Shown piece by piece: positions 28,291 to 57,010 of a stretch of DNA of 64,000 nt. The stretch is from Euglena gracilis (lineage: Eukaryota). A program made the translations under genes and the position numbers. Position 1 is the first letter of the stretch. Every line of letters begins with the position of its first letter. The notes under the pieces are model-generated. The model was not told the origin of the DNA, searched no databases, and saw only the letters and a list, made by a program, of their open reading frames with translations. The DNA is taken from contig CP154954.1 in NCBI GenBank assembly GCA_039621445.1, positions 13,744,387 through 13,808,386 on the forward strand, written 5' to 3'.

Positions 28291-28526
28291 CCACCGTGAA
28301 GTTGCTCTGCCGAACTTGCAGCTGACCTGTTCCCTTTTCGGTTCTGGGCTGTGGAGTCGTTTTTTTTTGTCAGGATATGTTTCTTGTGAGGTTTTTTCTT
28401 ACCTCCCATACCCAGTGTGTATGACTGCTGCGGCTCTGGACCTGGGTCCCTTGTTGTTTTCTGTTGTTTCGGTTGTGTCTGCAGAGAGTTGCCCCTCTGG
28501 TCCCATACCCTGAGGCCGCAGCCCCT

Positions 28527-30300
28527 TCACTTCCGTTCTGCGTTTTGAACTGGCTGCCAGCGATTGCTGGAAGATGCTTCTGCCTTTGGCTGTCCCTGTG
28601 GCTGGTTAGCTGGCTCCTGTGAACTGGTTTGCTGTGGCTGTGGTTCAGTTTTTGTTGCTGCTGGCTGTCGCTGTGGCTGCCCTTTGCCATATCCTTTCCC
28701 GCTCCCCTTCCCAGAATCGTATCCTTTCCCAGAGTTGTATCCCTTTCCTGACTCGTAGCCTTTGCCGTAATTCTGATTCCAGTTCTGGTTCTGGTTCCAG
28801 TTTTGGGTTGAACCCCAGTTTTGACGTTTCCTCTTTCCTTTGCCTTTGCCCCAGTCGTTTTGTCTCCAGTCTGACCAGTTGGTGTACCGTCCCTGGCCAG
28901 GCTGTTCTGAAACTGCCATGGGCACCTGCTGCCGTGGAGAAGGGGGTCTGGGTTTTTCATGTGTTGGGGTTCGAGGTCCAGGGGAGTTGGGTCGTGATCT
29001 GTAAGGTGGTGTCCGCCTTCTAGATTTTGTTTACTCCTCCTCCTTGACTTCCCTGACGTAACCCCTGCGGTCCATCGACCGTGACCTGTTTTCGCGAGGT
29101 TGGTTCTGCCAGCCGTTGTACCCCCTACTCAGGGAGTCTGAATGTTGTTGGAACCTGAGTTCGGTTTCCACCCGTTGGAACAGTTCGTCCAGAGTCAGTC
29201 TTGCTTGCACTTGTGTGAAGTGTGGTTTATGTCCAGTCAGCAACGTTGAACCGTTTTTCATCAGGAGCAGTTCAGCAGCTCTGCAGCTATGCAGTTGGAT
29301 CCTGAAGATTTGTCCGTCTCGTGCTACCTGAAACTTCTCACCTGTACCCACAGTTGCTGCCACCAGGTCACGAACGTCTTGCGTTGTTGCATCGGGTACG
29401 TTTGCAATGTTCGTGACCCCTTTCAGTTTCAGTGTTGGTCTGTCCTTTATTTCTGCGGTCCTGTTCCCTGATGCAGCTTCTGCGTTGCGTTCCAGGCATT
29501 TTTTCAGCCACCAGGTTGTACACGTCTTCCTCTGATGGATTTTCCAGCCTGCTGTAGGGTAGTTTGAAATGGGCTTCAAACGACCTCCACGCCTCCAGTG
29601 TCAGTTTTCCTTCCGTTTTTGGTGTTAGGTTTTTCAGTTCGTCTTTGATGGCTGATTGTGTGTCTCCACCGTATTTTTGGCACATCCAGTTCCAAAATTC
29701 CTGGTATTTTATTTTCTCACCGCCTTCCTGTCTGCGTTGTAGTTCCAGTTTGCTGGCACTGTCCAGGCTGCCCTCCAGCTGTGACAATTTCAGGTCATCG
29801 GTCAGGGACCCCTGACCGGCTGACACACGTTGCAGGTACATTGGAAATTTTATGGCAAAATATGCGAAATTCCCCTGCAGTGTTGGTCTTAACAGGTCTT
29901 TTGTCCTTGCCGCGCCCACTGGACCCAGCAGCAGCCCGAAAGATGCAGCCGGGGCCGTTGCCACGGGTGCCACCACTGTTTCCTCTCCTATGTGGTGGAT
30001 GGCAGTTTGGGTAGACCCCATCTGGGGTCCCACCCAGGTTGTTGTGGCTGTGTTTTGGGTTTCTGTTTCGTCTGCCCACATGAGCAAGCCCCGTGTCCGG
30101 GACTGTGGGTTTTGTTTTGCTGTCACTGGCTGTGAAGTCTGTTGAGTCGGCTGGTTTGGATGTGGTGCTGGGCTTGTCGGGTTTGTCGTAAGTGCTCGGC
30201 TGGTCGGCACTGCAGTCGGTCGTTGTTCTGTCTGTCGAGTCAGCTGGGCGATTAACGGTGTCAAGGCAGTTTTCAGTTCCTGTTGGATGAGCTGCCCCAC
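28527..30300 (-). pseudogene. gag-like region of element C
   Basis: ORFs 29368-30300, 29031-29579 and 28527-28925 align by eye with A gag. Confidence 0.8.
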
Positions 30301-30589
30301 CAGGGAAGCCGAGTTAACGGTCCCCAGTGCTGCAGCTCCTCCTTAAATTTTTGGGTGTGGTGTTTCGTTGCCCCAGTGCTGGCTGCTCTGGCTGAACATA
30401 CCTGTCAGTGGTTGTGGGGTCCCCGTCCCTGTTTGACAGGCCTGGGGTTCTGGGGTCCCTGTCCCTTGGTTTCCTGCGGGCTGGCCCCTCAGGGCTGGCC
30501 GTGGCTGGGCCAGGGGTTGTGGGGTCCCCGTCCCTTTTGGCCAGGCCTGGGGTTCTAGGGTCCCCGTCCCGTGTTGTCCTGTGGGATGG

Positions 30590-36635: not shown

Positions 36636-37316
36636 TGTGCGCGGTCCGAGGGTGCCCGCCCCAAGGAGGGGTCCCAAGGGGGCCCAAAGGGGCCACGAAG
36701 GCCCGCGAGGGGGCTCCAAGGCCCCCAAGGGCCTTTTGAGGCCCCACTGGCCCCCAAGGGGGCCCCACAGCCCATTTTGACCAAGCCAAGGGAAGGTAAA
36801 GGAGGGGGCAGGTTGAGGGGGCCAACAGGCAACCCCCAAGGGGATGCGCAAGCCCTGCTGGGCTTTGCGCAAGCATGCGCACCCCCTTGGTGGGCGCTCA
36901 GATGGCGCAATTCATTAAGAATTGCGCAAAGTATACCAAGTAGCCCCCCCAGCTGTAGCCCCCTCCAATTGTACATTTTCTGTTCACAGGGCTCTGTTCA
37001 CACTCTGTTCACATCATTTGTGTCACCAATTGTTTGCTTGCAAGCCAATTCAAGGAAATCAAGGAAATACAAATTACAAATTTCAAGTTCAAGTCTCATT
37101 GATTATTCAAGTATTCAAATTCATTTGTTGAAGCAAAAGTATGTCTTTTCCCAATCCTACAGCTTCACCTACACCAACACCAACCCCTACCCCTCTGTTT
37201 CACCAAGGGGAAAACCCCCACCAGGTGGGCCCGACGGGCTCAAATTTAAACGATCCTACGCGGGTTGTGCCGCCAGGGGTCCCTTCACAGGGACCTCAGG
37301 AGGGGCAACCCCTACA
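36636..37316 (+). repeat. 5' LTR of element A (681 bp)
   Basis: Differs from 49813-50494 by about five substitutions and one indel by eye. Confidence 0.95.
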
Positions 37317-37335
37317 TGGTCGCAGAGGAGGGTTT
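37317..37335 (+). promoter_or_regulatory. PBS of element A (tRNAi-Met-like)
   Basis: TGGTCGCAGAGGAGGGTTT immediately after LTR CA; two differences from the canonical TGGTAGCAGAGGATGGTTT. Confidence 0.85.
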
Positions 37336-40300
37336 GAGCCCTCTGGGCTCACACTATGTGAGCCTGGGGAGCCCAGACTCCCAGATTATGAATCACAGGA
37401 GGACAGCGACGAAGAAGCAAGCCACAGCCATGACAGCCCCAGCCATTGCGGCCAGGGCCAGCAGCTCCTGGCCATTGCCGGGCATGCCCAGCCGGACCCC
37501 CAGCAACCAGAACCATCTGGGTCCGGCATGGCATTGCCCAGCAGCCTGGGAGGGCTCTCCGGCATGCCCAGCTTTGTGCCAGGGTTTGTGCATGACATGA
37601 CCAGGCAGGTCATGTGGCAATTTGCAATGCGAGGGAAGATCAAAGAAGAAGAGGAAGAACCGGCAGAAGAAGAAGGCGAAGAAGAATTTGCAAGCCATGC
37701 CCAGCCACTTTTACTGGAGGCGGGGCCCTGGCAGAACCCCGGGGATGCCGGGCCGGCACATGCGCCGGTGGGCCATGTCGGGTCTGGGCATTTCTCCGCC
37801 GGACCCGACCATTGCTCGCTGGTGCATGCCGGTCCCGGGCATGATGGGCCCCAAGGACATGCCCCAGACCCAGCCACCCAGTGGCAGCTGCAGGAGCTGC
37901 CCCCAGCAGGGGATTTGATGGAGGACGAGGACCAGACAGCCCAGGGGGGGTTGGTGCCAGAACAGAGCCCGAAGGGGAGGCACCCCCCGCACCCCCCCCA
38001 GAGGTTGTGGGAGGAGGCGGAGGCACAGGCCGCTGCCTCAGTGGTTCTGGGACAGGAGATCCAGCGGTTGGACGGTTGGGGTGGCGACCTGCAAAGTCGG
38101 CTCGCTGAAGCGGGGGTCACCACAGCTGCTTCAGTTAGCCGCCTGGAGCAGTTGGTGTCCTTGCAGTTTCAGCGGGTCACGGAAAACTTTCAAGGAGTGG
38201 TGCAGCAAATGGAAAGAACCCAGGCTGGGCTAGCGTCCCAGCTGGCTGAAAATTTTCAAAATCTGCAGCAGAAGCAGATGGAAAATTTTTCTGGGGGGAT
38301 GACAGCCCTGAGCGAGCTGGTGACCAACCGGCTGGGCGAAAGCCTCGGGACTGTGGCCCAACTAGCCCAGAGGGTCCAGGGGCTCGAGGCCATCGCCAGC
38401 CAGGGTCACCAGCCAGCTGAGGGGCAGGGGTTCAACGAGGCGATGGCTGGGCGGGTGAAAAAATTTGAGGAGCTGCTCATCACCTCCGTCCGGACGACGA
38501 AGGAGGTGATGAGGAGCCAGGAGCTGGCCAGCGGGCCCAGGCCGAGGCCCTGGACCAAAAATTAGACCAGCTGACGGGTGAACTCGGGGGGCTGCGAGAA
38601 AGAAATGCAGGGATTGCACAGGCCCTGCAAAATTTTCGAGCAGAGCTGGACGGACAGGCCACAGCCATCGCTGAACAACAAGGGACCATAAGGGAAGACA
38701 TAAGGGAGCTAAGGGCCAGGGCTGAGGGGCAGGGCCACAGCCTGCAGGAGCTGTGGGCCGAGGTCACCACCCACGGGCAGGTGATCCAGGCCCACAACGC
38801 CCTGCTCCTGGAGGTGGACTTAACAATAAAGAGGGTACCAAAAGAAAATGCCGAAATAAAAAATCGGCTTTTGGTTTTAGAAAAGAAAATCGAAAATTTT
38901 GAAATTTTTTGCCCCCCCATCCAGGAGTTACCGCAGCCACCCAGAGGAGTGGGGCCGGAGAGCGAGGACCCCCGAGGCCCCGAAGCCAGAGTGCCCCCGG
39001 CAACCACGACTCCCAGACCCAGTCAACGCCGGGGGCCCAGAGTGCCAATGGCTCGGGTGCCGCGGGGGGCAATATGCCTCCTGGCCCCCAGCACCAGCTC
39101 CCAGTCCATCCCGGCGTGCTGGGAGGCAAGGGGCCCGTGGCCCCCCAGGGGCTCTCTGCTGGCCCCAGCAGCGGGGCAGCGGGGGCAGTGGCCCACACAC
39201 CCGGGGAAGTGGTTTCCCCGGGCCCAGCTTCTGTAACTGCAGTTTTTCCCAGTGGGTTCTCGGGTTCTGGCCCCCAGAGGGGCAGGAGTGTTGTCCCTGA
39301 TTCTTCGGCAGAGGGGAATGCAGCACCCCCAGCCAGCGGGGGCCCTTCGGCACCAAGGGGCAGCCAGCCCCAGGGTCCCATGGCTGCGGGGGGTAGCCAG
39401 CCCCAGGGCCCCATGGCTGCGGGGGGCAGCCAGCCCCAGGGTCCCATGGCTGCGGGGGGCAGTCCGGTCCAGGTCCCCGCTGCTGGAGGGACCCCAGCTG
39501 GCCAAACACCTGGCACGTTCGGGTTCCAGGGGGTGGATTGGGAGGAAGCGGAACACCAGATTAAGGCTCACGGATTTTTTAATTTTTTGGCCAGGTTGGG
39601 AGCCCAGGAGCAGCAGCAACAGTCTCAGCAAAATTCACGAACAACGGGACAGTCCAGCACAGCGAAACCACGGGCAGCAGGCACAGCAGATCTACAGGGC
39701 CAGGGCAGGGGTCAACCAGGGGTGAAATCAGCCGAGCACCAGTGGCCCCCCCAGCCCCGTGGGTTCCCCGCAGGAGGGGAGTTCACGGGGGCAATGGACC
39801 CTTTCGCCTGGGCCCCTGAGGCTGGGGCAGCATCGTGCAGCGCTGCCCCTCTGGCCTTTGGGTCCCAGGACACGGGAGCCTGGGTCCGGGGGGTCCAGGC
39901 AGCTCCGGTCCACGTGGCACCAGCAGCCCCCAGCCCAGCAGCCAGCATGTTTTTGGGGCCGCTGGCGACACTCCTCACCAAAGACCTTGCAAAACCAGAG
40001 CTGAAAGGTGATTTTCATGATTTTTCAGTAAAATTTCAGCTCTACATGCAGCAGGTTTCCATGGGACGGCCAGTGGGGGAGGAATTTAAAATGCTTGTTC
40101 TGACCGGCTGCCTGGACCACAGCAGCCGGCTGGAACTCCAGCGGCGACAGGAGATGGGGGAACGGGTCAGGTTCCAAGATTGGCTGGCCCAGAAATATGG
40201 CGGCGACATCCAGGCCTCGCTGCATGAGCAGCTCAGGAGCCTCAGACCGGTCAACACAGGCAAGTTGACCCTCCCGGCGTGGCGTGAATATGAAAGTCAG

Positions 40301-41281
40301 TCTAAATTAATTTTATGCCGGATGGAAAACCCCTCTGAGGAGGAAGCACAGGCTCTGGTTCTGCAGCAGCTCCCAGATTCCATGCGTAGGGCAATAATCA
40401 GGGAGCAGACCCGAAAAAATCAGGATGCGCCCACAGTGCGGCTGTGGCACATCCCTGGGTTGACGGCGGAAAAGGCAACACAGCTCGCCCAGGAGGCTGT
40501 GGGTGAGGGGGAGCCGGTGACAGTCAGGGCACACCGGGACTCCTTCCTCATCAAGCTCTACAGCCGGCCGGCGCTGGAGAGGCTGATGATGAGGAACGGG
40601 GCCACGCTGCAGGGGGGCAATACAGTGAAAATCACCCCCCACGAAACAAAGCTGGGATTGGAAGAGGTTTTTCGACACGCTGAAAATGAGCTGCGGTGCC
40701 AGGAACGGTCTGACAGCTATGGCCGTTCTTGGGGTGGACGGGGGGTCCCAGCCCACCAGGAGGACCACTGGGCTGGGGGCCTCGACAATTTTTCAGTCTC
40801 TGAGGTAAAATCCCAGGAAGCCAGGCCAGCCCAGCCCCAGAAAACGGTTTCACAGCCAGCTGAGGGAGGAGCAAAGGCAGGACCCCCCAAAGGCCCTGAG
40901 GGGCCACAGGACAGGCAATCACGGCACCGGGGCGGGTCTCCTGGAAAGGGACGGGAGGGACGCAGGTCACCCAGCCCGGGGCAAAAGGGGAAGGGGTTCG
41001 GCAAGGGAGCTGGCAAGGGCGGCTCAGAGTTTCGCCCAGCCAGGTCCCCAACCCCTCACCCAGCCACCAACAGGGAACAAACCCCCCCGAGGAGCCCCCG
41101 GAGTAGCCCCTCGGTGGACCAGCCCTGCAGCCAGTGCGGGGCCACAGATCTCTGGTCTCAGGAATGCCCTGGAAAAAAATGTTATGAGTGCGGGAAAACG
41201 GGACATCTGGCACGATATTGCTGGTGGAGAAAGGGAAAGGGGAAGGGGGCGTCCACACCCCCACGGCGGGGGAGTGCCTGA
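37336..41281 (+). pseudogene. gag: gag of element A: acidic/coiled-coil N-terminus, GSQPQGPMAAG repeats, capsid-like region, two zinc knuckles
   Basis: ORFs 37141-38565, 38781-39236 and 38909-41281 joined by frameshifts; CSQCGATDLWSQEC and CYECGKTGHLARYC. Confidence 0.85.
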
Positions 41282-41941
41282 AAAAGCGGGGGCCAGAAGG
41301 GAGGGGACGGGTGCCCAGGGTGCCCCCAGCACGGCCCTCGGAAGGGGGGTAAGGAACAGGCTCACGGAGAGGGTTGGGTTTTGGTCAAGGGCAGATCCGG
41401 ACCTGGACCTGCACGGTCCCCCCAGCCCCCCCTGACTGAGACACGAAAAGGGGCTGGGGGGGGCCAGCAGGCCCTCTCATTCGACTCTGCCAACCCCTGG
41501 TCTGCGCTTTTCACCAGTGAGGGCAGTCCAGGGGGGGGCTCGGGTCAGAATCCAGGCACGGGACAAAGGGAGAAGGGACACAAGGCGGCTGGCCCTCCGC
41601 AGCAAGCCGCCCAGGGGTCTTCGGGTTCCAGCACACCCAGTCTACCGCAGATCACAACACCAGGAAGGGAGGGGAGAAACACAAAACAAAAAAAGAAAAA
41701 AGAAAAAAACAAAACGCTCTCACAGGCATCAATCAGGGAGGCAGCAAGGGAGGTCATCAACGTTCCCCAAACCAGTAAGGGCACGGATGAAACCGCCCCC
41801 AGCACGGAAAGGGATTCAGAGTTTTTGATTCGCCAGGTGAGGTGCGTCAGGACCGCACCTTCCACCTCAGCCCCCACACCACAGCCAGCCCCAGCACCAC
41901 TCCCAGCCCGTTCCTCAGGGTTTGGGAGGTCGCCCTCCCGG

Positions 41942-42360
41942 TGGATTTCCCAGGACTACCACGTCCGGGAGGAGTACGTCAGGGACGTACTCCGCCGCCT
42001 GGGAGTCTACCCGGAGGTCGACGCCTTTTCTGCCAAAGAAAACCGCAGGTTCGTCCGCTGGTGGGGCCAGGGAGCAGGGAGGGAGAAGATGCCTTCAAGC
42101 AGGACTGGGGCAGGGAGGTTTTGTGGATCAACCCACCTTATAAAAAAATAGAGGAGGTTCTCGGAAAAATCAGGAGGGATCAGGCCCATGCCATCCTGGT
42201 GAGCCCCAGGTGGCCGGGGCGGCGTTGGTACAGGGAGGCCAGGGGCTTGGCTGTGCGCCAAGTCACGTTCCCTCAGGGAACACGATTTTTCGGCAGAGGG
42301 GAGGAGTTGTGCCAGGGGACCAAGTGGCCCATCACAGCCTTTTTGCTGTGTGGGCACCCA
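41942..42360 (+). CDS. N6-adenine DNA methyltransferase domain (Dam/DIRS-MT-like) of Pol; 1-bp deletion in a G-run at ~42065
   Basis: VDAFSAKENRRF..WW, DAFKQDW, LWINPPY (NPPY 42130-42141), ILVSPRWPGRRWY; frame is intact in copy B. Confidence 0.9.
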
Positions 42361-42519
42361 GACCGGTGCACGCTGGAGGAGGTGACACGAAGAGGGAGGG
42401 AGAAAAAAACCAGGTTCGGGACACATTTTTCAGGGCCACCCCCAGGGACCGGGGGGGCCACAGGGGAGGTCAAGCCGGCACACCTGGGGCAGGTGGGGAG
42501 AGCGGACCAGCCCAGGCGG

Positions 42520-43120
42520 ATGCTGGACCTGTTCTGCGGGACAGGTTCAGTAGGGGACGTCTACCGCAGCCTGGGTTACCAGGTCACGTCGGTGGACGTG
42601 GACCCCAGGTGGCGGCCAGACATTTGTGTTGACGTGCTGAAATGGAATTTTAAAAAACAGTTCCAGCCTGGGGATTTTGAGGTGGTGGTGTGCGGGGTCC
42701 CCTGCACCGAATTCAGCCTGGCGCTGACCACCAGGGAACGAGATTTAAAATTGGCTGATCGGCTGGTGCAGCGGGCCCTGGCCATCATCAGATACCTCCG
42801 CCCACGGCGGTGGTGGCTGGAAAACCCCCGGTACGGTTACCTGCGGACCCGCAGGTACATGGCAGGGATCCCACACGTGGATGTGGATTACTGCCAGTAC
42901 GCTGACTGGGGCTACCAGAAGCCCACCAGGATATGGGGCAGCCCCCATGTCCTGGGTCTCCGGCCACAGGTGTGTGACGGCCGGACCTGCACCAACCTGG
43001 AAAGCCCAGTACCTGAGGGGGGACGAAAGGGACGGCACAAAATTCGGCTCAGCAGCAAACACCAAAACCTTCCCAGGCACCTGAAATATCGGATCCCAGA
43101 GGCGCTCATCCGTGACCTGG
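42520..43120 (+). CDS. C5-cytosine DNA methyltransferase domain of Pol, apparently intact
   Basis: Motif I DLFCGTGS, motif IV GVPCTEFS (PC 42700-42705), motif VI ENP (42820-42828), DYCQY..GYQKPTRIW, C-terminal YRIPEALI; in frame with the N6-MTase C-terminal half and the protease. Confidence 0.93.
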
Positions 43121-43239
43121 CCACAGCACCAGCACCGGAGGCCCACGCTGCCGGGTCTCCGGAGCCAGAGCGGGACCCCCAGACAGAGCGAGGGGTGCCC
43201 TCGGTCTTGCTCCGTGAGGTGGGGCAGGGTGCCAGTGAA

Positions 43240-43620
43240 CGGCAGCTGCTGATGCGGGTGCAGGCCAGGGGGCCAGACGGACAGACCCACTTCATCAACG
43301 CCCTCATTGACACAGGGGCAGAGGTGAACCTGGTCCGAAGAGGCATGCTACCCAGCACATACCTCCTGCCTGCCCCCAAGCCCCTGTCCCTGGTGACGGC
43401 TAGTGGAGCCAAGATGGAAGGGGGGGAACGTGAGGCAACCCTGGGCCTGGTCCTCCGGCGGGAGGGGGGCCTGGGTCAGGGGGAAGGGGCCCTGTGGACG
43501 GCCCCAGCCTCCTTCTATGAGGCAGACATCCACGTGGAGGCCATCATCGGCTTTCCGTGGCTGGAGGAAAACCAGCTTGGGGTGTTTCCACATCTCCGAG
43601 CCTTGGCATTGAGGGGAGAG
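43240..43620 (+). CDS. Retroviral-type aspartic protease
   Basis: ALIDTGAEVNLV...AIIGFPWL. Confidence 0.92.
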
Positions 43621-43713
43621 CAGGTGGTCCTCCTTCGGGGACGTGATGCGGAGGGTGAGCAAGTTCAGCCAGCAGCCCACAAAAAGGCACAAAAGTGAGC
43701 GAGATACCTGAAA

Positions 43714-45550
43714 ATGGTGGAAAAAGTCAGAGCACTGCGGCTTGCTTTGCCAGAGGCAGCCCTGGGGGAGGACACCGAGGTGCCTGAGTGGGAGGAAAAC
43801 CCCCTGCACGAGGATGAGGCGACCCAGGAGACAGTGGCCAAGGAACTCCTGCGGGCAGCCCGGGAGGTCGAAGCACGGGCAGCCCAAGGGGTCATCCTTG
43901 TTCCCGAAGGGGAACAGGTGACCAGCCAGCGGGCTGAGGAGCTCCGGGCAGCCCTCCGGAGTGACTTCGAGGGGGAGGTTCTCCGAGACAGGATTTGGGG
44001 GGAAAGAATCGTTCGGGGGCCCCTGGGGGAAGGGAAAATCGAATTAAAACCGGGATCTGTGGCAAAGAAACAGAGGCCCATCCACCTGACGGGGGAGAGG
44101 CACAGGGCCTTGTGTGACCTAGTGGATGAGTGGGTTCGGGACAAGAAGGTGGAGGAGGGGGTGCCAAGTGCCTGGAGCAGCCCCACATTCGTGGTGGCCA
44201 AGAAACAGGGGAAGTGGCGTGGGGTTGTGGATTTCCGGGCATTAAACGAGGCCACAGTGACGGATGCTTACCCCCTCCCCAGGATTGAAGACATCCTGGT
44301 GAACCAGGGACGGAGGTACCTGTTCTCCGTCCTTGATCTCAAGGATGCCTTCCATCAGGTGCCCCTGCACGAGGACTCACGCCCATACACCTGCTGCAGC
44401 ACCCCCCGAGGGTCCAAGCAGTGGTGTGTGGTCGTGATGGGCCTGAAAAATGGAGTGGCCATTTTTCAGCGGGTGATCGAGTACTCGCTGAGGGAAGTGG
44501 CTGATGTCGCCAACCCATACGTTGACGACATCATCGTGGGGACAGAGTGGTGTGGCACGGAGGAAGCTACCATGGAGGCACACGACCAGGACATCAGGCG
44601 AGTGTTAGGGGACCTGCGGGAACACCGCCTAGTCGTGGACAAAAACAAGTGCCGCTTCTTCGTAAGAGAAGTGGAATTCTGTGGCCACATCCTGGGGGGA
44701 GGAAAACGAAGGCCAGCACCGGGCAAACTCATGGCGCTGGAGAAGTGGGAGGAGCCCCGCACGATCACAGCCCTCAGGGGCTTTCTGGGCTTCACCAACT
44801 ACTACTCCAGCTACGTGAAGGAGTATGCCCGGTATGCAGCCCCCCTGATGGAACTCCTCAAGGTGGGACGTGTGGAAGGGAAAAAAGGCAGCAAAAAACC
44901 TGTGAAATTCGGCCAAACGGAACGGGAGGCCTTCACCGCCCTGAAGCAGGAGCTCCTCCGAGGATTGGAGCTCCACACCATCAACCCGGACGAGCCATTT
45001 ATCCTCCGGGTAGATGCGAGCGACAAGGCGGTGGGGGCAGCCCTGGAACAGTTTTTGGAGCCAACAGAGGGGATGCCCACAGCCGTGGAAGCCACTACAC
45101 GGAAAACCGTGCCTGTGGCCTTCTGCTCCAGGAAACTCACGGCTGGGCAGGTGAAGAGCTGGTCTCCGCGAGAGAAGGAGACTTACGCCATCATCCTGGC
45201 CCTCCAAAAAGGGGGCCTCCTACATCGGCCTGCAGCCGGTGTTGGTCCTCACGGACCACAAGTCCCTGTAGGCCTGGGCCAAGGAGACCCTGGACACGCC
45301 CAGCGGACCTGCCGGGAGGCGGGGACGCTGGCATGAAATGTTCTCCCGGTTTGACCTTCACGTGGTCTACATCCCGGGAAAGGAAAATGTGGTGGCGGAT
45401 GCCCTCAGCAGATGGGCATATCCTGCCTCCAAGGCATTTGCCGACATCAGCCTCCACGGGAGCGAGGAGGATGATGAGGCAATGAGGGCCATGATCGAAG
45501 AAGAACGGAGGGAAGAGCGAGAATGCGGGACACCGCACGGGGGGGAGTAA
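43714..45550 (+). pseudogene. pol: Ty3/Gypsy reverse transcriptase + RNase H
   Basis: WRGVVDFRALN, YPLPRIE, LDLKDAFHQ, YVDDI, LRGFLG; RNase H VDASD, EKETYAI, TDHKSL, NVVADALSR; frameshift ~45210 and in-frame stops. Confidence 0.95.
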
Positions 45551-45556
45551 CTCCAC

Positions 45557-47533
45557 GTGGCGGTAACAACACGCAGTGGGAGAGACACAGCAGCACAGCA
45601 CAGACCTGGCCCCAGCCCCACAGAGGGGGAGGGGGCTGAGGATTCAGTGCCAGGGGGCCCTGGCCCTGACCCCACAGGGGGGGAGGGGCCTGTGGATGCC
45701 CCCTCGGGAGATTCGGGTCCCATCCTCATGGGAGGGGAGGGACCTGGGGGACCTGGGTTGGACACGCGGGAGACACGAGGTTCCCCACGTGCCCATCTTT
45801 TCGTGGATGAATTCGGGAATGAACAGCCGGCAAGAAGGGGCGGACCTGAGGAACACCAACCGGGGCGAAGAGTTCTGAGTGAGGACCTGCAGCTGACCCC
45901 CTCCATCGATGATCCCCACCGGGGGGATCTCGGGGAACCTGTGCGGGAACCAATTTCACTTTCTCCAGACACGGGGGTGCACACCCAGGAGGAGGTGGAG
46001 GAGGATCCCTCCATCCCAGTGATGGACAGGGATTGGTCACGGGCATATGAAAATTGCCCTGTGTGGGGGCCTGTTTATGCAAGTGTGCAGGCCCCTGCAG
46101 GAGAGTGGCCTGAGGGAGTCCGTCTGTACGAGGACAAAATGTACACGGACGGGCTCCTCTGTGTGCCCACCAGCCTGATGGGGCTCGTGGTCCGGGCCCA
46201 CCACGGGGACGCGGGCCACCCAGGAGCCTCCAGGCTCTGGCACCAGATGGGGCGGTGGTATAGGTTCGCAGATCCAAGGGGGGCAGAGAAAATCACCCAA
46301 GGCATCCAGCGGCAATGTGAAATTTGCCAAGCCTGTGACCCCTCTCGAGCACCTTTCAAGTGTGCTCTCGAAGCCACCCCTGTACCACCGTTCCTCATAG
46401 ACAGTGTGGCAGTGAACCTGTTTGCAATGCCTGAGGTGACCCACGAGGGCCAGGTGTATGATTACCTGGCCCTGTGCGTGGACCGTGAGAGTGGGTGGAA
46501 AGTGGCCACCCCCCACAAGTACAAGGGCCTGACAGCCGAGGTGGTGGCCAAGGCCATGTTCCGCCACTGGGACATGTTCGGGGTGCCCTCTGTGGTGACC
46601 TCGGACCGTGGCCCCCACTTTGCCTCGGCTTGGTGGCAAACAATGTGCGCCGCCATGGGGGTGAGGCGTGCCTACGGGCAGGCCTACCACCACCAGGCCA
46701 ACGGTCGGGCAGAGGTGGCGGGCCAACGGGTGATGAACACCCTGTCCAAGCTCATTGCCGACCTGTCGGAGAAGGAGGCCTCGTGGGTGGTGCTGTTACC
46801 CAAGGCCCTCCGGCACCTGCACGATGTGCCAGGGGAGTCCGGCTTGTCGCCCTACGAGGTGGTCTTCGGGCGGCACCGGCCACTCCAAGGCCTGCCCCAC
46901 CAGCCCCCACGAGAGGCCGAGGGGGCAGCCGACTTCATGGCACGGATGCGGGCTATGGACGAGAAGGTGGCCTTAACCTTGAATGCCTTGCACACCAAAC
47001 GGTGGGCTTCCCTCAACGCCAAGAGAAGGGACCCACCTCCCCTGGAGGTCGGTGCCAAGGTGTGGTACCGTCCCGAGACACAGCCGGGCACAGACAAGTT
47101 GGCCACCAAGTGGAAAAGGGGGACTGTGGTGGCCCGCCGGGGTCGCCACTCATATGTGGTGGAGCTGGCCCCGGGGGCCCGCCAAGAGACACACCGGAGC
47201 CAACTCAAGCTCCACGCGGAGGACGAGTTCTCCACCGACCCCCTCCCACTGTTCTATTTCAGTGACAAGGCGGCCCCCCTAGAGGTGGGACCGGATGAGT
47301 GGGTGGTGGAGGAGATTGTGAGCAGCCGGAACCACCCGGAAACGGGGGTCCCGGAATTTCAGGTGAGGTGGAAAAACTGGGATCCGACGGATCTCCAATG
47401 GCTGCCTTGGTCGGATTTCTTCCCCTCCTACAACGAGGATGTGGTGGATTATTGTGCAGCCAAGGGGATTCCGTTGGAGGTGGTGGGACTTCTCCGCCCC
47501 GGGAAGAGGGGGGGGCGGGGACGGGGTCAATAA
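45557..47533 (+). CDS. Integrase (HHCC + DDE core) with C-terminal chromodomain
   Basis: H..AGHPG...CEICQ; SVAVNLF (first D changed to N; D in element G), TSDRGPHF, NGRAE; chromodomain WVVEEIV...EFQVRWKNWDPTDLQWLP. Confidence 0.95.
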   Translation: MAVTTRSGRDTAAQHRPGPSPTEGEGAEDSVPGGPGPDPTGGEGPVDAPSGDSGPILMGGEGPGGPGLDTRETRGSPRAHLFVDEFGNEQPARRGGPEEHQPGRRVLSEDLQLTPSIDDPHRGDLGEPVREPISLSPDTGVHTQEEVEEDPSIPVMDRDWSRAYENCPVWGPVYASVQAPAGEWPEGVRLYEDKMYTDGLLCVPTSLMGLVVRAHHGDAGHPGASRLWHQMGRWYRFADPRGAEKITQGIQRQCEICQACDPSRAPFKCALEATPVPPFLIDSVAVNLFAMPEVTHEGQVYDYLALCVDRESGWKVATPHKYKGLTAEVVAKAMFRHWDMFGVPSVVTSDRGPHFASAWWQTMCAAMGVRRAYGQAYHHQANGRAEVAGQRVMNTLSKLIADLSEKEASWVVLLPKALRHLHDVPGESGLSPYEVVFGRHRPLQGLPHQPPREAEGAADFMARMRAMDEKVALTLNALHTKRWASLNAKRRDPPPLEVGAKVWYRPETQPGTDKLATKWKRGTVVARRGRHSYVVELAPGARQETHRSQLKLHAEDEFSTDPLPLFYFSDKAAPLEVGPDEWVVEEIVSSRNHPETGVPEFQVRWKNWDPTDLQWLPWSDFFPSYNEDVVDYCAAKGIPLEVVGLLRPGKRGGRGRGQ

Positions 47534-47630
47534 GGGGGGAGAGGGGCAGGAGGTGGAGGCGAGGGGACGGCGGGTGCGGGGATTGTGGTGGTGGCGGAGC
47601 ACACGCACATCCTTCGCTCTTGTGCGTAGG

Positions 47631-49812: not shown

Positions 49813-50494
49813 TGTGCGCGGTCCGAGGGTGCCCGCCCCAAGGAGGGGTCCCAAGGGGGCCCAAAGGGGCCACGAAGGCCCGCGAGGGGGCTCCAAGGCC
49901 CCCAAGGGCCTTTTGAGGCCCCACTGGCCCCCAAGGGGGCCCCACAGCCCATTTTGACCAAGCCAAGGGAAGGTAAAGGAGGGGGCAGGTTGAGGGGGCC
50001 AACAGGCAACCCCCAAGGGGATGCGCAAGCCCTGCTGGGCTTTGCGCAAGCATGCGCACCCCCTTGGTGGGCGCTCAGATGGCGCAATTCATTAAGAATT
50101 GCGCAAAGTATACCAAGTAGCCCCCCCAGCTGTAGCCCCCCTCCAATTGTACATTTTCTGTTCACAGGGCTCTGTTCACACTCTGTTCACATCATTTGTG
50201 TCACCAATTGTTTGCTTGCAAGCCAATTCAAGGAAATCAAGGAAATACAAATTACAAATTTCAAGTTCAAGTCTCATTGATTATTCAAGTATTCAAGTTC
50301 ATTTGTTGAAGCAAAAGTATGTCTTTTCCCAATTCTACAGCTTCACCTACACCAACACCAACCCCTACCCCTCTGTTTCACCAAGGGGAAAACCGCCACC
50401 AGGTGGGCCCGACGGGCTCAAATTTAAACGATCCTACGCGGGTTGCGCCGCCAGGGGTCCCTTCACAGGGACCTCAGGAGAGGCAACCCCTACA
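49813..50494 (+). repeat. 3' LTR of element A (682 bp)
   Basis: Direct repeat of 36636-37316. Confidence 0.95.
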
Positions 50495-51573: not shown

Positions 51574-54500
51574 TGTGCCCGCCCAAAAGGGGGGTCCCAA
51601 GGGGCCCCAAAGGGGCCACGAAGTGCCGCGAATGGGCTCCAAGTCCCCCAAGGGCCTTTTGAGGCCCCACTGGCCCCATGGGGGCCCCACAGCCCATTTT
51701 TACCAGGCCAAGGGAAGGTAAAGGAGGGGGTAGGTTGAGGGGCCCAACAGGCAACCCCCAAGGGGATGCGCAAGCCCCTCTAGGGTTTGAGCAAGCGTGC
51801 GCACCCCCTTGGTGGGCGCTTGGGATGGCGCAATTCATTAAGAATTGCGCAGAGTATACCAAGTAGCCCCCCCAGCTGAAGCCCCCCTCCAATAGTACAT
51901 TTTCTGTGCAGGGCTCTGTTCACACCCTGTCATTTGTGTTCACCAATTGTTTGCTTGCAAGGCAATTCAAGGACAAATCAAGGAAATACAAATTACAAAC
52001 TTCAAGTTCAAGTCTCATTGATCAATTACTCAAGTTCATTTGTTGAGACAAAAGTATGTCATTCTCCCATTATTCTACATCTCCATCTACACCAACACCC
52101 ACCCCTACCCCACTTTTTCACCAAGGGTAAAACCCCCACCAGGTGGGCCCGACGGGCTCCAATTTTAACGATCCTACGCAGGTTGCGCCACCAGGGGTCC
52201 CTTCACAGGGACCTCGGGAGCGGCAACCCTTACATGGTCGCAGAGGAGGGTACACTATGTGAACCTGGGGAGCCACTCCCCAATTATGAATCACAGGAGG
52301 AGGACGACGACGAAGCAAGCCACAGCCATGACAGCCCCAGCCCTTACGGCCAGGGCCAGCTCCTGGCCATTGCTGGGCCAGCCCAGCCGGACCCCCAGCA
52401 GCAACAATCTTCTGGGTCAGGCTTGGCACTGACAAGCATCCTGGGACTGCTCTCTGGCATGCCCAGCCTGGTCATGCCGGAGTTTGAGCATGACACAACC
52501 AGGCAGGTCATGTGGCAATTTGCCATGCGAGGAAAGATCAAAGAAGAAGAGCAAGAAGCAGCGGAAGAAGAAGAGGAATTTGCAAGCCACGACCAGCCCC
52601 TTTTGCTAGAATGGGGGCTCTGGTTAAACCCTGGGGATTCCGGGCCGGCCCATGCGCCGGTGAGCCATGTCGGGTCTGGGCATTTCCCAGCCGGACCCGA
52701 CCATTGCTCGCTGGTGCATGCCGGGCCCGGGCACGATGGGCACCAAAGCCATGCCCCAGACCAAGCCACGCACTGGCACCTGCAGCAGCTTGCCACAGCA
52801 GGGGATTTGATGGAGGACGAGGACCAGACAGCACAGGGGGGGTTGGTGCCAGAACAGAGCGCGAAGGGGAGGCACCTCCTGCACCCCCCCCCAGAGGTTG
52901 TGGGAGGAGGCGGAGGCTCAGGCCGCTGCCTCAGTGGTTCTGGGGCAGGAGATCCAGCGGTTGGACGGTTGGGTTGGCGACCTGCAAAGTCGGCTTGCTG
53001 AAGCGGGGGCCACCACAGCTGCTTCAGTTAGTTGCCTGGAGCTGTTGGTGTCCTTGCAGTTTCAGCGGGTCACTGAAAATTTCCACGGGGTGGTGCAGCA
53101 AATAGAAAGAACCCAGGCGGGGCTGGCGTCCCAGCTGGCTGAAAATTTTCAAAATCTGCAGCAGAAGCAGATGGAAAATTTTTCTGGGGGGATGACTGCC
53201 CTGAGCGAGCTGGTGACCAACCGGCTGGGCGAAGGCCTTGGGACTGTGGCCCAACTAGACCAGAGGGTCCAGGGGCTTGAGGCCATCGTCAACCAGGGTC
53301 ACCAGCAAGCGGAAGGGCAGGGGTTCAACGAGGCGATGGCTGGGCGGGGGAAAAAAGTTGAGGAGCTGCTCATCACCTCCGTCCGGACGAGGGAGGAGGT
53401 GATGAGGAGCCAGGAGCTGACCAGCTGGCGGCAGCAGGCCCAGGCCGAGGCCCTGGACCAAAAATTAGACCAGCTGACGGGTGAACTCGGAGGGCTGCGA
53501 GAAAGAAATGCAGGGATTGCACAGGCCCGGCAAAATTTTCGAGCAGAGCTGGACGGACAGGCCACAGCCATCGCTGAACAACAAGGGACCATAGGGGATG
53601 ACATAAGGGAGCTAAGGACCAGGGCTGAGGGGCAGGGCCACAGCCTGCAGGAGCTGTGGGCCGAGGTCACCACCCACGGGCAGGTGATCCAGGCCCACAA
53701 CACCCTGCTCCTGGAGGTGGACTCAACAATAAAGGGGGCACCAAAAGAAAATGCCGAAATAAAAAATCAGCTTTTCTTTTTGGAAAAAAAAATCGAAAAT
53801 TTTGAAATTTTTTGACCCCCGTCCAGGAGCTGCCGCAGCCACCCAGAGGAGTGGGGCCGGAGAGCGAAGACCCCCGAGGCTCCGAAGCCAGAGCGCCCCC
53901 GGCATCCACAGACCAGACACAGCACATGCCGGGGGCCCAGAGAGTGAGTGGCTCGGGTGCCGCGGGGGGCAATATGCCTCCTGGCCCCCAACATCAGCTA
54001 CTAGCCCATCCCAGTCTGTTTGGAGGCAAGGGGCCTGTGGCCCCCTAGGGGCTCTCTGCTAGCCCCAGCAGCGGGGCAGCGGAGGCAGTGATCCAACTTC
54101 CCGGGGAAGTGGTATCCCCGGGCCCAGCTTCTGTGACTGCAGTTTTTCCTAGTGGGTTTTCAGGTTCAGGCCCCAAGAGGGGCAGGGTCCTGTCTGCCGA
54201 AACGTCTGTGGTTTTTTCCCCTGTTCCCAGTGGTGCTCCCCCAGTGGCTTGGGATGCCGCTGTGGGGGGCCATTTTCCCAGTCTTTCACCAGTGACCGTT
54301 TTGCAAAACCCAGTTCTGCCTCAGCCGTTTTCCCTGGGTTCAGTGGGTTCAGTGGCCAGGACTCTGGTTTGTTTCCTCTGCAGGGGGGGATGCACCCCCA
54401 GCCAGCGTGGGCCCTTCGACACCAAGGCGACACCAAGGGGCAGCCAGCCCCAGGGTCCCATGGTTGCGGGGAGCAGCTTGCCCCAGGGCCCCATTGCGGC

Positions 54501-57010
54501 GGGGGGCAGCCAGCCCCAGGGTCCCATGGCTGCGGGGGGCAGTCCGGTCCAGGCCCCCGCTGCTGGATGCACCCCAGCTGCCCAGACACCTGGCACGTTC
54601 GGGTTCCAGGGGGTGGATTGGGAGGAAGCGGAACGCCAGATTAAGGCTCACGGATTTTTTAATTTTTTGGCCAGGTTGGGAGCCCAGGAGCAGCAACAGT
54701 CTCAGCAAAATTCACGAACGACGGGACAGTCCAGCACAGCGAAACCACAGGCAGCAGGCACATCAAATCTACAGGGCCAGGGCAGGGATCAACCTGGGAT
54801 GAAATCAGCCGAGCACCAGTGGCCCCCCCAGCCCCGTGGGTTCCCCGCAGGAGGGGAGTTCACGGGGGCAATGGAACCTTTCGCCTGGGCCCCTGAGGCT
54901 GGGGCAGCATCGTGCAACGCTGCCCCTCTGGCCTTCGGGTCCCAGGACACGGGAGCCTGGGTCCGGGCGGTCCAGGCAGCTCCGGTCCACATGGCGCCAG
55001 CAGCTCCCAGCCCAGCAGCCAGCATGTTTTTGGGGCCGCTGGCGACACTCCTCACCAAAGACCTTGTAAAACCAGAGCTGAAAGGTGATTTTCATCATTT
55101 TATAGTAAATTTTCAGCTCTATATGCAGCAGGTTTCTACGGGACAGCCAGTGGGGGAGGAATTTAAAATGCTTGTTCTGACCGGCTGCCTGGACCACAGC
55201 AGCCGGCTGGAACTCCAGCGGCGACAGGAGATGGGGGAACGGGTCAGGTTCCAAGATTTCTGGAACTGGCTGGCCCAGAAATACGGCGGTGACATCCAGG
55301 CCTCGCTGCATGAGCAGCTCAGGGCCCTCAGACCAGTCAACACGGGTAAGTTAAACCTCCCATCGTGGCGTGAATATGAAAGCCAGTTTAAATTAATTTT
55401 CTGCCGGATGGAAAACCCCTCGGAGGAGGAAGCACAGGCCCTGGTTTTACAGCAGCTCCCAGATTCCATGCGAAGGGCCATAATCAGGGAACAGACACGG
55501 AAAAATCAGGATGTACCCACAGTGCAGCTGTGGCACATCCCAGGGTTGACAGTGGAGAAGGCAGCACAACTCGCCCAGGAGGCTGTGGGTGAGGAGGAGC
55601 CGGTGACAGTCAGGGCACACCGGGATTCCTTCCTCATCAAGCCCTACAGCTGACGGGCGCTGGAGAGGCTGATGATGAGGAACGGGGCCACGCTACAGGG
55701 GGGCAATACAGTGAAAATCACCCCCCACGAAACAAAGCTGGGATTGGAAGAGGTTTTTCGACACGCTGAAAACGAGCTGCGGTGCCAGAAACGGTCTGAC
55801 AGCTATCGCCGTTCTTGGGGCGGACGGGGGGTCCCAGGCCTCCAGGAGGACCACTGGGCTGGGGGCCTCGACAATTTTTCAGGCTCTGAAGTTAAATCCC
55901 AGGAGGCCAGGCCAGCCCAGCCCCAGAAAACCGTTTCAAAGCCAGCTGAGGGGGGAGCAAAAGCAGGACCCCCCAAAGGCCCCGAGGGGCCACAGGACAG
56001 GCAATCACGGCACCGAGGCGGGTCACCTGGAAAGGGACGGGAAGGACGCAGGTCACCCAGCCCGGGGCAAAAGGGGAAGGGGTTCGGCAAGGGAGCTGGC
56101 AGGGGCGGCCCAGATTTTCGCCCAGCCAGGTCCCCAACCCCCCACCCAGCCACCAACAGGGAACAATCCCCCCGAGGAGCCCCCGGAGTGGCCCCTCGGT
56201 GGACCAGCCCTGCAGCCAGTGCGGGGCCACAGATCACTGGTCTCGGGAATGCCCAGGAAAGAAGTGTTATGAGTGCGAGAAAACGGGACATCTGGCACGA
56301 CAGTGCTGGTGTAGAAGGTGAAAGGGGAAGGGGATTTCCACGCCACCACGGCGGGGGAGTGCCTGAAAATGCGGGGGCCAGAAGGGAGGGGACGGGGTCC
56401 CAGGGTGCCCCCAGCACGGCCCTCGGAAGGGGGGTGAAGAAAGGGTTCACGGAGAGGGTTGGGTTTTGGTCAAGGGAAGGTCCAACGGCAGACCCGTACC
56501 TGGACCTGCACGGTCCCCCCAGCCCCCCCTGACTGGGACACGAAAAGGGGCTGGGGGGGGGCCAGCAGTCCCTCTCATTCGACTCTGCCAACCCCTGGGC
56601 TGCGCTTTTCCCCAGCGAGGGCAGTCCAGGGAGGGGCTCAGGTCAGAGTTCAGGTTCGGGACAAAGGGTGAAGGGACCCAGGCCGCCCAGGGGTCTTCGG
56701 GTTCCAGCACACCCAGTCTACCGCAGGTCACAACACCAGGAAAGGAGGGGAAAAACGCAAAACAAAAAAATAAAAAAGAAAAAGACAAAACGATCTCACA
56801 GGCATCAATCAGGGAGGCAGCGAGGGAGGTCATCAACGTTCCCCAAACCATCAAGGGCACGGATGAAACCGCCCCCAGCACGGAAAGGGATTCAGGTTTT
56901 TCCATTCGCCAGGTGAGGTGCGTCAGGACCGCACCTTCCACCTCAACCCCCACACCACCCCCAGCACCACTGCCAGCCCGTTCCTCAGGGTTTGGGAGGT
57001 CGCCCTCCCG

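What the first reader, a model, noticed from the sequence alone, without database searches (positions are those of the whole stretch)
41942..43620. Ty3/Gypsy retrotransposon with tandem N6-adenine and C5-cytosine DNA methyltransferases built into Pol
Seen: between the Gag zinc knuckles and the protease, the Pol frame encodes a Dam-like N6-MTase (DAF..N..F, DAF...W, NPPY, P.WP...W) and then a C5-MTase with motifs I (DLFCGTG), IV (PC) and VI (ENP), followed by PR-RT-RH-IN-chromodomain. Known: DIRS tyrosine-recombinase elements carry a similar Dam-like domain, and C5-MTases have been reported in some dinoflagellate and charophyte retrotransposons. I do not know of both chemistries in tandem in one DDE-integrase chromodomain element. 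Inference: the MTases would be packaged with Pol, released by the element's protease, and could mark the new cDNA with 6mA and 5mC (self-silencing, camouflage or nuclease protection), while the chromodomain reads chromatin at integration, giving a self-contained write-and-read epigenetic module.
Basis: partly seen in the sequence, partly recalled or inferred. Interest (0 to 1): 0.93.

Follow-up and report, generated by a model that had tools for sequence, protein, structure and literature searches.

The report
Retrotransposon carrying two DNA methyltransferases
A large jumping gene of the Ty3/gypsy type really does carry an adenine and a cytosine DNA-methylating enzyme side by side in front of its protease, but this kind of element was described in a 2026 preprint under the name EpiLTR, and the copies in this window are damaged.

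Summary
Element A (36636-50494, + strand) is a 13.9-kb LTR retrotransposon. Its order is gag, in-frame TGA, Dam-like N6-MTase, C5-MTase, protease, RT-RNase H, DDE integrase, chromodomain.

- **C5 domain:** with an alignment of relatives it folds at pLDDT 92.8. It matches DNMT1, DIM2, DNMT3 and M.HhaI. Its closest match is a 218-aa giant-virus MTase (TM 0.80).
- **N6 domain:** it has the NPPY pocket and matches Pfam Dam. The window copies score below threshold. Five of 5 full-length relatives score above it.
- **Selection:** both domains show purifying selection between copies A and B (pN/pS 0.37 and 0.27).
- **Damage:** A has a 1-nt deletion inside the N6 domain, a stop after the protease, and a broken RNase H-integrase junction. 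B has two stops and is truncated.

The novelty claim fails. A May 2026 bioRxiv preprint (10.64898/2026.05.21.726589) describes LTR elements with DAM, DNMT and chromodomain, named EpiLTRs, in Euglena gracilis and Cymbomonas tetramitiformis.

- The family is very large: 4415 protein clusters at E up to 0.001.
- The order of N6, C5 and protease differs between clades.
- The C5 module is a compact viral-like type.

Methylation of the element's own cDNA remains an inference.

The parts
36636..37316 (+). 5' LTR of element A (TG...CA). The 4-bp target-site duplication GCGG lies at 36632-35 and 50495-98.
   Evidence: blastn of the two ends gives 99.1% identity over 683 columns, 5 mismatches and 1 gap. 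Termini and flanks were read.
37317..37328 (+). Primer-binding-site-like sequence starting TGG, directly after the 5' LTR.
   Evidence: Sequence read. The assignment is an inference from its position and the TGG start.
37132..38565 (+). First ORF (477 aa, stop to stop). It starts inside the LTR. It looks coiled-coil-like and has no family.
   Evidence: Pfam gives only a weak Baculo_PEP_C match, E 0.017.
38903..41281 (+). gag-like ORF with CCHC zinc knuckles at its C-terminus. It ends with TGA at 41279-41281.
   Evidence: zf-CCHC E 0.0059. Copy B has the same TGA followed by the same frame.
41939..42345 (+). Dam-like N6-adenine MTase domain (DAM). It is split over two frames by a 1-nt deletion after 42062.
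   Evidence: Pfam Dam: E 1.5e-5 for the copy B domain, and 17 of 20 aligned members match.
42499..43170 (+). Compact C5-cytosine MTase domain with motifs I, IV (catalytic Cys), VI and VIII, and a short Cys/His-rich target-recognition region.
   Evidence: AF2 pLDDT 92.8. Foldseek PDB and BFVD matches. Conserved columns.
43231..43695 (+). Aspartic protease (D-T-G-A at about 43309). It is followed by an in-frame stop at 43696-43698 that is private to copy A.
   Evidence: RVP E 0.066 plus the motif. At the stop, all other contigs of four runs read a sense codon.
43699..45336 (+). Reverse transcriptase and RNase H.
   Evidence: RVT_1 E 4.2e-30 and RT_RNaseH_2 E 7.6e-15.
45551..47533 (+). Integrase (H2C2 zinc domain plus DDE core) and C-terminal chromodomain. 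It is in a different frame from RT-RH, and stops lie between them.
   Evidence: rve 34 bits (cut-off 32.6), Chromo 22.4 bits (cut-off 25.1), Integrase_H2C2 21.6 bits. The junction was read.
49813..50494 (+). 3' LTR of element A, preceded by a polypurine tract at 49801-49812.
51575..58255 (+). Copy B: 5' LTR, ORF1, gag, N6 (57009-57415) and C5 (57570-58241). It is truncated just after the C5 domain, is 92.7% identical to A, and has two in-frame stops.
26517..30342 (-). Element E, a diverged relative with the same order: gag, N6, C5, PR. It is frameshifted and truncated.
   Evidence: tblastn, ORFs, Pfam Dam E 5.4e-5.
58649..62056 (-). Element C, a related chromovirus with a C5-MTase N-terminal part (62056-61865), RNase H, integrase and chromodomain. 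No N6 match was found. A reverse-transcriptase fragment on the + strand interrupts it.

Best explanation
The window holds a defective full-length copy (A), a truncated copy (B), and two diverged relatives (E, C) of chromodomain-bearing Ty3/gypsy LTR retrotransposons of the 'EpiLTR' kind.

SHOWN:
- A has near-identical LTRs, a 4-bp target duplication, and a gag that ends at a TGA shared with B.
- Pol follows in the same frame and runs Dam-like N6-adenine MTase, compact C5-cytosine MTase, protease, RT, RNase H, DDE integrase, chromodomain.
- The C5 domain has the DNA C5-MTase fold.
- The catalytic Cys of motif IV is invariant, and the ENP and FxGxG motifs are invariant or nearly so, in 51 aligned sequences.
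- The N6 domain keeps the (N)PP(Y/F/W) pocket.
- Both domains evolved under purifying selection between A and B.
- The family is highly repeated in the source organism.

INFERRED:
- Pol is made by read-through of the gag TGA.
- The two MTases enter the particle as part of Gag-Pol and are freed by the protease.
- They methylate the new cDNA, or the RNA:DNA or DNA intermediate, at adenines and at CpG cytosines.
- A fresh insertion would then carry the host-like 5mC pattern and possibly a 6mA mark that host enzymes maintain.
- The chromodomain steers integration.

The copies in this window cannot do this themselves, because they are broken.
For: - **Structure of A:**
- **C5 fold:** AF2 with a 51-sequence alignment gives pLDDT 92.8 and pTM 0.88. 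Foldseek against PDB gives 289 matches at E up to 0.001. The top matches are DNMT1, DIM2, DNMT3A/B, MET1 and M.HhaI, at probability 1.00 and TMq 0.47-0.60. Against BFVD the best match is the Tetraselmis virus 1 putative cytosine MTase (218 aa), E 2.4e-21, TM 0.80/0.82, 33% identity.
- **Conserved C5 residues:** C69 (the PC motif), S73 and P110 are invariant. F12, G14, P68, E108, N109 and R144 are at 90% or more.
- **N6 domain:** Pfam Dam E 1.5e-5 for the copy B domain. 17 of 20 aligned members match at E up to 0.001, best 2.6e-11. P25, D28, F30, W57, W63, P66, P67 and K77 are invariant.
- **Full-length relatives:** five of 5 single-ORF polyproteins of 1763-1911 aa pass Pfam's gathering score for Dam, for DNA_methylase, and for RVT_1 and rve. 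Chromo passes in 4 of 5 (24.5 bits against 25.1 in P0169).
- **Selection, A against B:** N6 pN/pS 0.37 (binomial p 0.01). C5 pN/pS 0.27 (p 2.5e-5). Linker 0.47 (p 0.13).
- **Copy number and copy-specific damage:** 3318 contig pieces of a DNA run lie on the 1951-base stretch. A's stop at 43696 is a sense codon in all 28 contigs that cover it there. 13 contigs, 88,344 of 228,571 summed depth, carry one more base at A's frameshift.
- **CpG decay:** CpG observed/expected is 0.53 against GpC 0.82 in A. 68 of 422 A/B substitutions are of the CpG type. This fits a CpG-methylated host.
- **Literature:** EpiLTRs, and the hypothesis of cDNA methylation, are in 10.64898/2026.05.21.726589 and PMC5890265 (passages).
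Against: - No enzymatic activity was tested here.
- In the window's own copies both MTase matches are below Pfam's gathering scores: Dam 25.2 and 22.2 bits against 28.1, DNA_methylase 18.7 bits against 22.
- A profile of the family found no significant match in PDB by sequence. The best was E 0.0087, to an unrelated SAM MTase over motif I only, and DNMT1 scored E 0.3.
- A, B, E and C are all broken. About 61% of the summed contig depth in run X1 lacks the extra base at A's frameshift, so the frameshifted form may itself be common.
- The pN/pS test ignores transition and CpG bias.
- Read-through of TGA, packaging and cleavage are inferred from layout alone.
- The host organism is not known to me.
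Confidence: 0.8

Rival explanations
1. The domains are real folds, but they do not methylate the element's DNA. They might act on RNA. They might bind nucleic acid or S-adenosylmethionine without catalysis. Or they might recruit host enzymes such as AMT1, and be kept for that role.
For: The preprint's heterologous DAM assay was negative. Eukaryotic DAMs align only with the TR-2 to CD-2 part of bacterial Dam and lack CD-1 and TR-1. In the 2018 paper the SymbioLINE DNMT did not methylate DNA in yeast, and RNA methylation was suggested (passage). The target-recognition region of the C5 domain here is very short.
Against: The catalytic Cys, the ENP motif, the FxGxG motif and the NPP pocket are invariant or nearly so across diverged members, which a pure binding role would not need. 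The C5 model matches DNA C5-MTases, not RNA m5C enzymes, at the top of both libraries. A retrotransposon DNMT from Symbiodinium methylated CG de novo (abstract of PMC5890265).
Confidence: 0.17
2. The tandem is an artefact. A nested insertion, a chimeric assembly, or a captured host or viral gene fragment sits inside a dead element and is not part of Pol.
For: The window is a pile of nested and truncated elements. The preprint itself warns of nested insertions and assembly artefacts in Euglena.
Against: N6, C5 and PR are in one frame in A from 42064 on. In B all of N6 and C5 are in one frame apart from two stops. The same order occurs in three elements of the window. The domains occur with the rest of Pol in single ORFs of 1763-1911 aa from independent assemblies. 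Purifying selection acts on both domains.
Confidence: 0.02

Closest known systems
EpiLTRs of Euglena gracilis and Cymbomonas tetramitiformis (Fernandez-Moreno et al., bioRxiv 10.64898/2026.05.21.726589, May 2026)
   Same: They are LTR (Ty3/gypsy, chromovirus-like) retrotransposons that encode a Dam-like adenine MTase, a C5 DNMT and a chromodomain in one element. The preprint reports a host with heavy CpG methylation for Euglena, and CpG decay is seen here.
   Different: In Cymbomonas the DNMT sits at the 3' end of pol, whereas here both MTases lie between gag and the protease. I could not see the layout of the Euglena elements, because figures and supplements are not held, so I cannot say whether this is that family or another lineage. 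The preprint places the EpiLTR DNMT as sister to DNMT4. Here the closest structure by far is a 218-aa giant-virus MTase, and I could not test the position relative to DNMT4.
DIRS retrotransposons with a Dam-like methyltransferase domain
   Same: The N6 domain is of the same kind: an xPxxDxFA motif, then DAF, NPP(Y/F/W) and PxW motifs. It matches Pfam PF05869.
   Different: DIRS elements use a tyrosine recombinase and have split or inverted repeats. This element has a DDE integrase (rve, 34 bits), ordinary direct LTRs, a target-site duplication and a chromodomain.
SymbioDIRS-Dnmt3, SymbioLINE-Dnmt and KnitGypsy-Dnmt3 (de Mendoza et al. 2018, PMC5890265)
   Same: These are retrotransposons with a C5 DNMT inside or beside Pol. 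The same hypothesis of self-methylation of the cDNA was proposed for them.
   Different: Those carry only a cytosine MTase, of the DNMT3 type or a Symbiodinium-specific type, in DIRS, LINE or gypsy backbones. None has an adenine MTase (passages).
Compact C5-MTases of giant viruses and phages (for example the 218-aa putative cytosine MTase of Tetraselmis virus 1)
   Same: They have about the same length and an end-to-end structural match: TM 0.80/0.82, rmsd 2.4 A, 33% identity. Language-model look-alikes are archaeal and viral MTases of 210-219 aa.
   Different: Those are free-standing viral genes. Here the module is a domain of a retrotransposon polyprotein.

Membership tests
EpiLTR (dual-methyltransferase LTR retrotransposon) | LTR retrotransposon backbone: direct LTRs, a Ty3/gypsy-type RT-RNase H, and a DDE integrase | tested here: met
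   LTRs 99.1% identical, TG..CA ends, 4-bp duplication. RVT_1 105 bits, RT_RNaseH_2 55 bits, rve 34 bits.
EpiLTR (dual-methyltransferase LTR retrotransposon) | DAM (PF05869-like) adenine MTase domain in the element | tested here: met
   The motifs are present. Pfam Dam gives E 1.5e-5 for the window domain, which is below the gathering score. 17 of 20 aligned members match, and 5 of 5 full-length relatives score above gathering.
EpiLTR (dual-methyltransferase LTR retrotransposon) | C5 DNMT domain in the same element | tested here: met
   AF2 pLDDT 92.8. Foldseek matches DNMT1, DNMT3, DIM2 and M.HhaI. Motifs I, IV and VI are conserved.
EpiLTR (dual-methyltransferase LTR retrotransposon) | Chromodomain | tested here: inconclusive
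   Chromo scores E 1.1e-4 and 22.4 bits, below the cut-off of 25.1, in copy A. Four of 5 full-length relatives pass the cut-off; P0169 scores 24.5 bits.
EpiLTR (dual-methyltransferase LTR retrotransposon) | Placement of RT, DAM and DNMT within the Euglena or the Cymbomonas EpiLTR clade | not testable with these tools
C5 cytosine DNA methyltransferase (PF00145) | Pfam gathering score | tested here: not met
   The window domain scores 18.7 bits against a cut-off of 22. Five of 5 full-length relatives pass, at 23.2-28.2 bits. The fold test was met.
C5 cytosine DNA methyltransferase (PF00145) | Catalytic motifs: FxGxG (I), PC (IV), ENV/ENP (VI), and an arginine in motif VIII | tested here: met
   In 51 sequences C69 and P110 are invariant, and F12, G14, P68, E108, N109 and R144 are at 90% or more.
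C5 cytosine DNA methyltransferase (PF00145) | Transfer of methyl to C5 of cytosine in DNA | not testable with these tools
   This needs an enzyme assay.
DIRS retrotransposons | Tyrosine recombinase instead of a DDE integrase | tested here: not met
   The element has rve and Integrase_H2C2 matches, and no Phage_integrase match among the ORFs scanned.
DNMT4-sister clade, as reported for the EpiLTR DNMT | Phylogenetic position next to DNMT4 | not tested
   No DNMT4 sequences were at hand. Structure search ranks a giant-virus mini-MTase far above DNMT1, DNMT3 and DIM2.

The most novel reading that the evidence does not exclude
The window's family is not the Euglena or Cymbomonas lineage. It belongs to a very large, mostly unsampled radiation of chromoviruses, with 4415 clusters at 50% identity matching at E up to 0.001. 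In that radiation the adenine MTase, the cytosine MTase and the protease behave as freely movable cassettes. All six orders of the three occur upstream of RT, and each order is largely confined to its own clade of the C5 tree. On this reading the cytosine module came from a compact giant-virus or phage MTase with a Cys3-His mini target-recognition region, not from a cellular DNMT.
Probability: 0.3. Interest if true: 0.55.

Novelty: already known. Interest (0 to 1): 0.35.

Why it matters
Mobile elements that bring their own writers of both 6mA and 5mC, plus a chromatin reader, show that transposons can adapt to the host epigenome instead of only being silenced by it. That point has been made in print (preprint, 2026).

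This window adds a cleanly delimited element with LTRs, a target duplication and a gag-TGA-pol layout. It gives evidence of purifying selection on both MTase domains. It also gives three leads the preprint text does not mention:
- the module order is permuted between clades;
- the family is very diverse in environmental data;
- the C5 module looks like a compact viral enzyme.

These leads could guide the choice of intact copies for the enzyme assays that are still missing.

Tried and rejected
- **Single-sequence fold.** AF2 of the C5 domain without an alignment failed (pLDDT 31.8). It was replaced by the alignment-based run.
- **Whole genome.** A search was not possible, because no genome is held for this window.
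- **Earlier findings.** The scan's store had nothing by place or by sequence.
- **PDB by sequence profile.** A profile of the N6+C5 alignment gave no significant MTase match by sequence. The best was E 0.0087 over motif I only.
- **First N6 alignment.** A3 was spoiled by proteins with a different domain order. It was remade with collinear members as A4.
- **3' region of A.** The GC-rich stretch 47534-49811 gave no Pfam match in 5 of 5 ORFs scanned. I do not claim a gene there.
- **RNA genes.** Rfam and tRNA scans of the window found nothing.
- **Host identity.** One cluster look-up gave a partial protein filed under a carnivorous plant, only about 40% identical, which I take to be a stray contig.
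- **RNA evidence.** A metatranscriptome library (X18) gave 15 contigs on the stretch, covering 14 of 30 bins. Two runs that are only guessed to be RNA gave 4 and 6 contigs. DNA carry-over cannot be excluded, and the uncovered bins say nothing, so I do not claim transcription.
- **Careful tree.** The careful tree search did not finish in 300 s. Only the quick tree is used.
Full report
**What is there**

The region 36-58 kb is GC-rich, 0.61-0.68 against 0.43-0.55 in much of the rest of the window, and carries long + strand ORFs. Repeat search and blastn define element A by two LTRs (36636-37316 and 49813-50494). They are 99.1% identical over 683 columns, with 5 mismatches and 1 gap. The LTRs have TG...CA ends. 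A 4-bp duplication, GCGG, flanks the element. A TGG-initiated primer-binding-like site follows the 5' LTR, and a polypurine tract precedes the 3' LTR.

Inside A, in order:
- An ORF of 477 aa without a family, which starts in the LTR.
- A gag-like ORF ending in CCHC knuckles.
- A TGA at 41279-41281, after which the same frame continues.
- The Dam-like domain, from 41939.
- The C5 domain, 42499-43170.
- The protease, with D-T-G-A near 43309.
- RT-RNase H, 43699-45336.
- Integrase plus chromodomain, 45551-47533.

**The observation**

Relative to copy B it lacks one base after 42062, so the first part of the domain is in the gag frame and the rest is in the frame of C5-PR-RT.

A has further damage. 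There is an in-frame stop at 43696 between protease and RT. Stops and a frame change lie between RNase H and integrase.

Copy B (51575-58255, 92.7% identical to A over 5802 compared columns) has N6 and C5 in one frame but with two in-frame stops. Both are CpG-type transitions relative to A. B also carries changes in the ENP and GVPC motifs and is cut off right after the C5 domain.

**Are the two domains real methyltransferases?**

*C5 domain.*
- A single-sequence fold failed.
- With an alignment of 50 relatives the model reached pLDDT 92.8 and pTM 0.88.
- Foldseek against PDB gave 289 matches at E up to 0.001. All the top matches are DNA C5-MTases: DNMT1, DIM2, DNMT3A/B/C, MET1 and M.HhaI, with TMq 0.47-0.60.
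- Against predicted viral structures, the best match is a 218-aa putative cytosine MTase of Tetraselmis virus 1. It matches end to end, with E 2.4e-21, TM 0.80/0.82, rmsd 2.4 and 33% identity.
- In the 51-sequence alignment the catalytic Cys of motif IV (C69) is invariant. F12 and G14 (motif I), E108, N109 and P110 (motif VI), and T143 and R144 (motif VIII) are invariant or at 90% or more.
- In the short region between motifs VIII and X, C132 and C164 are invariant, and C159 and H180 are nearly so. I read this as a possible metal site. That is an inference, because I had no coordinates to check it.

*N6 domain.*
- Pfam Dam scores 25.2 bits (E 1.5e-5) for the copy B domain, below the 28.1 cut-off.
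- 17 of 20 aligned members match at E up to 0.001, best 2.6e-11.
- P25, D28, F30, W57, W63, P66, P67 and K77 are invariant, and N65 is at 90% or more.
- A language-model look-up gave eukaryotic clusters, mostly unannotated, with Dam on 10% of the members of one cluster. That is only a lead.

*Full-length relatives.* Five of 5 single-ORF polyproteins (1763-1911 aa) pass Pfam's gathering scores for both Dam and DNA_methylase, and for RVT_1 and rve. Chromo passes in 4 of 5.

**Selection and decay**

Between A and B:

| Region | pN/pS | Differences | Binomial p |
|---|---|---|---|
| N6 | 0.37 | 16 nonsynonymous, 12 synonymous | 0.01 |
| C5 | 0.27 | 18.5 nonsynonymous, 21.5 synonymous | 2.5e-5 |
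| Linker | 0.47 | 8 nonsynonymous, 6 synonymous | 0.13 |

These figures are; the NG86 values are. Both copies are dead, so the signal must come from the active lineages that gave rise to them. The test does not model CpG or transition bias.

CpG is depleted in A, at observed/expected 0.53 against 0.82 for GpC. 68 of 422 A/B substitutions are CpG-type.

In contigs of a DNA run, 3318 pieces lie on the 1951-base stretch, with very large summed depth. A's stop at 43696 reads as a sense codon in all 28 contigs there, and also in the other three runs. One more base at A's frameshift is seen in 13 contigs, 88,344 of 228,571 depth. So intact-looking versions of these places exist, but the frameshifted form is also abundant.

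**Relatives elsewhere**

A search of 1.84 billion cluster representatives with the N6(part)-C5-PR stretch found 4415 proteins at E up to 0.001 and 1788 at E up to 1e-10.

Among the 186 relatives fetched up to that point, 182 match the C5 domain and 45 match the N6 domain. Because the search was driven mainly by C5, this is no estimate of frequency. By motif and domain positions, all six orders of N6, C5 and protease occur. Examples:
- N6-C5-PR, as here: P0005, P0156, P0159.
- PR-N6-C5-RT: P0162, P0169, P0176, P0182.
- C5-N6-PR-RT: P0179, P0185.
- N6-PR-C5: P0012, P0037.
- PR-C5-N6: P0009, P0017.
- C5-PR-N6-RT: P0175.

Pfam confirms the Dam-then-DNMT order in three full-length ORFs and the DNMT-then-Dam order in two.

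A quick maximum-likelihood tree of 55 C5 domains used only rows for which at least two modules were seen, 55 of 117 with a long enough C5 match. Order labels cluster on it: 21 changes against a shuffled mean of 33.4, and none of 200 shuffles was as low. It puts the window's copies in a starred clade of 12 rows, all compatible with N6-C5-PR. The careful search did not finish, and truncated proteins blur the labels.

**In the window itself**

tblastn finds a third N6-C5 tandem on the minus strand (element E, 45-52% identical). A fourth element (C) has a C5 N-terminal part, RNase H, integrase and chromodomain, but no N6 match.

**What is known**

- *de Mendoza et al. 2018 (PMC5890265; search listing and passages).* It describes DNMTs in DIRS and LINE elements of Symbiodinium and in a gypsy element of Klebsormidium. 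It notes that DIRS elements elsewhere carry Dam-like MTases. No element has both.
- *The preprint 10.64898/2026.05.21.726589 (abstract, all of Results, Discussion; figures and supplements not seen).*
  - It reports DAM domains in non-DIRS LTR elements.
  - It names 'EpiLTRs', which have DAM, DNMT and chromodomain, in Cymbomonas tetramitiformis (DNMT at the 3' end of pol) and in Euglena gracilis (a different layout).
  - It places their DNMT as sister to DNMT4.
  - It reports heavy CpG methylation in Euglena.
  - It reports more 6mA on DAM-LTRs.
  - It reports a negative 6mA assay in E. coli.
- *Literature searches.* A search for the word EpiLTR finds only this preprint. The search for papers with retrotransposon, adenine methyltransferase, cytosine methyltransferase and gypsy finds three, of which only the two above bear on the matter.

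**Verdict**

The architecture is real, but it is already described.

The mechanism is plausible and matches the published hypotheses, but none of it is shown. It consists of read-through of the gag TGA, packaging of the MTases with Pol, release by the protease, and methylation of the new cDNA. For the adenine enzyme, the only published test was negative.

Noticed in passing
window 26517-30342 (minus strand): Element E is a diverged relative, about 45-52% aa identical in the MTase domains, with the same order gag, N6, C5, protease. It has lower GC, is frameshifted, and is cut off near the start of RT. Its C5-protease linker is nearly identical to database protein P0159.
   Followed up: partly
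window 58649-62056 (minus strand): Element C is a chromovirus with a C5-MTase N-terminal part, RNase H, integrase and chromodomain, but no detectable N6 domain. A reverse-transcriptase fragment on the + strand (YYDD motif, about 61200-62250) interrupts it.
   Followed up: partly
window 41279-41281 and 56364-56366: Both copies end gag with TGA followed by AAA, and Pol continues in the same frame. This suggests stop-codon read-through rather than frameshifting for Pol expression.
   Followed up: partly
window 37132-38565 and 51880-53815: Both copies have an extra first ORF upstream of gag. It starts inside the 5' LTR, looks coiled-coil-like, and has no family match.
   Followed up: no
window 47534-49811: About 2.3 kb of very GC-rich sequence (0.66-0.68) lies between the chromodomain and the 3' LTR of A. 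It holds long ORFs in several frames, and 5 of 5 scanned had no Pfam match.
   Followed up: partly
proteins P0005-P0190 (database relatives): The order of adenine MTase, cytosine MTase and protease upstream of RT differs between relatives. All six orders were seen, and the order tracks clades of the C5 tree.
   Followed up: partly
window 42892-43040 (residues 132-180 of the C5 domain): Three cysteines and a histidine in the short target-recognition region are invariant or nearly so in 51 sequences. They may form a zinc site.
   Followed up: no
window 7700-8600: Long (CA)n and (GCTGGC)n-like simple repeats and proline-rich repeat ORFs. The first 36 kb look like further degraded mobile elements, and no clear host gene was seen.
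   Followed up: no
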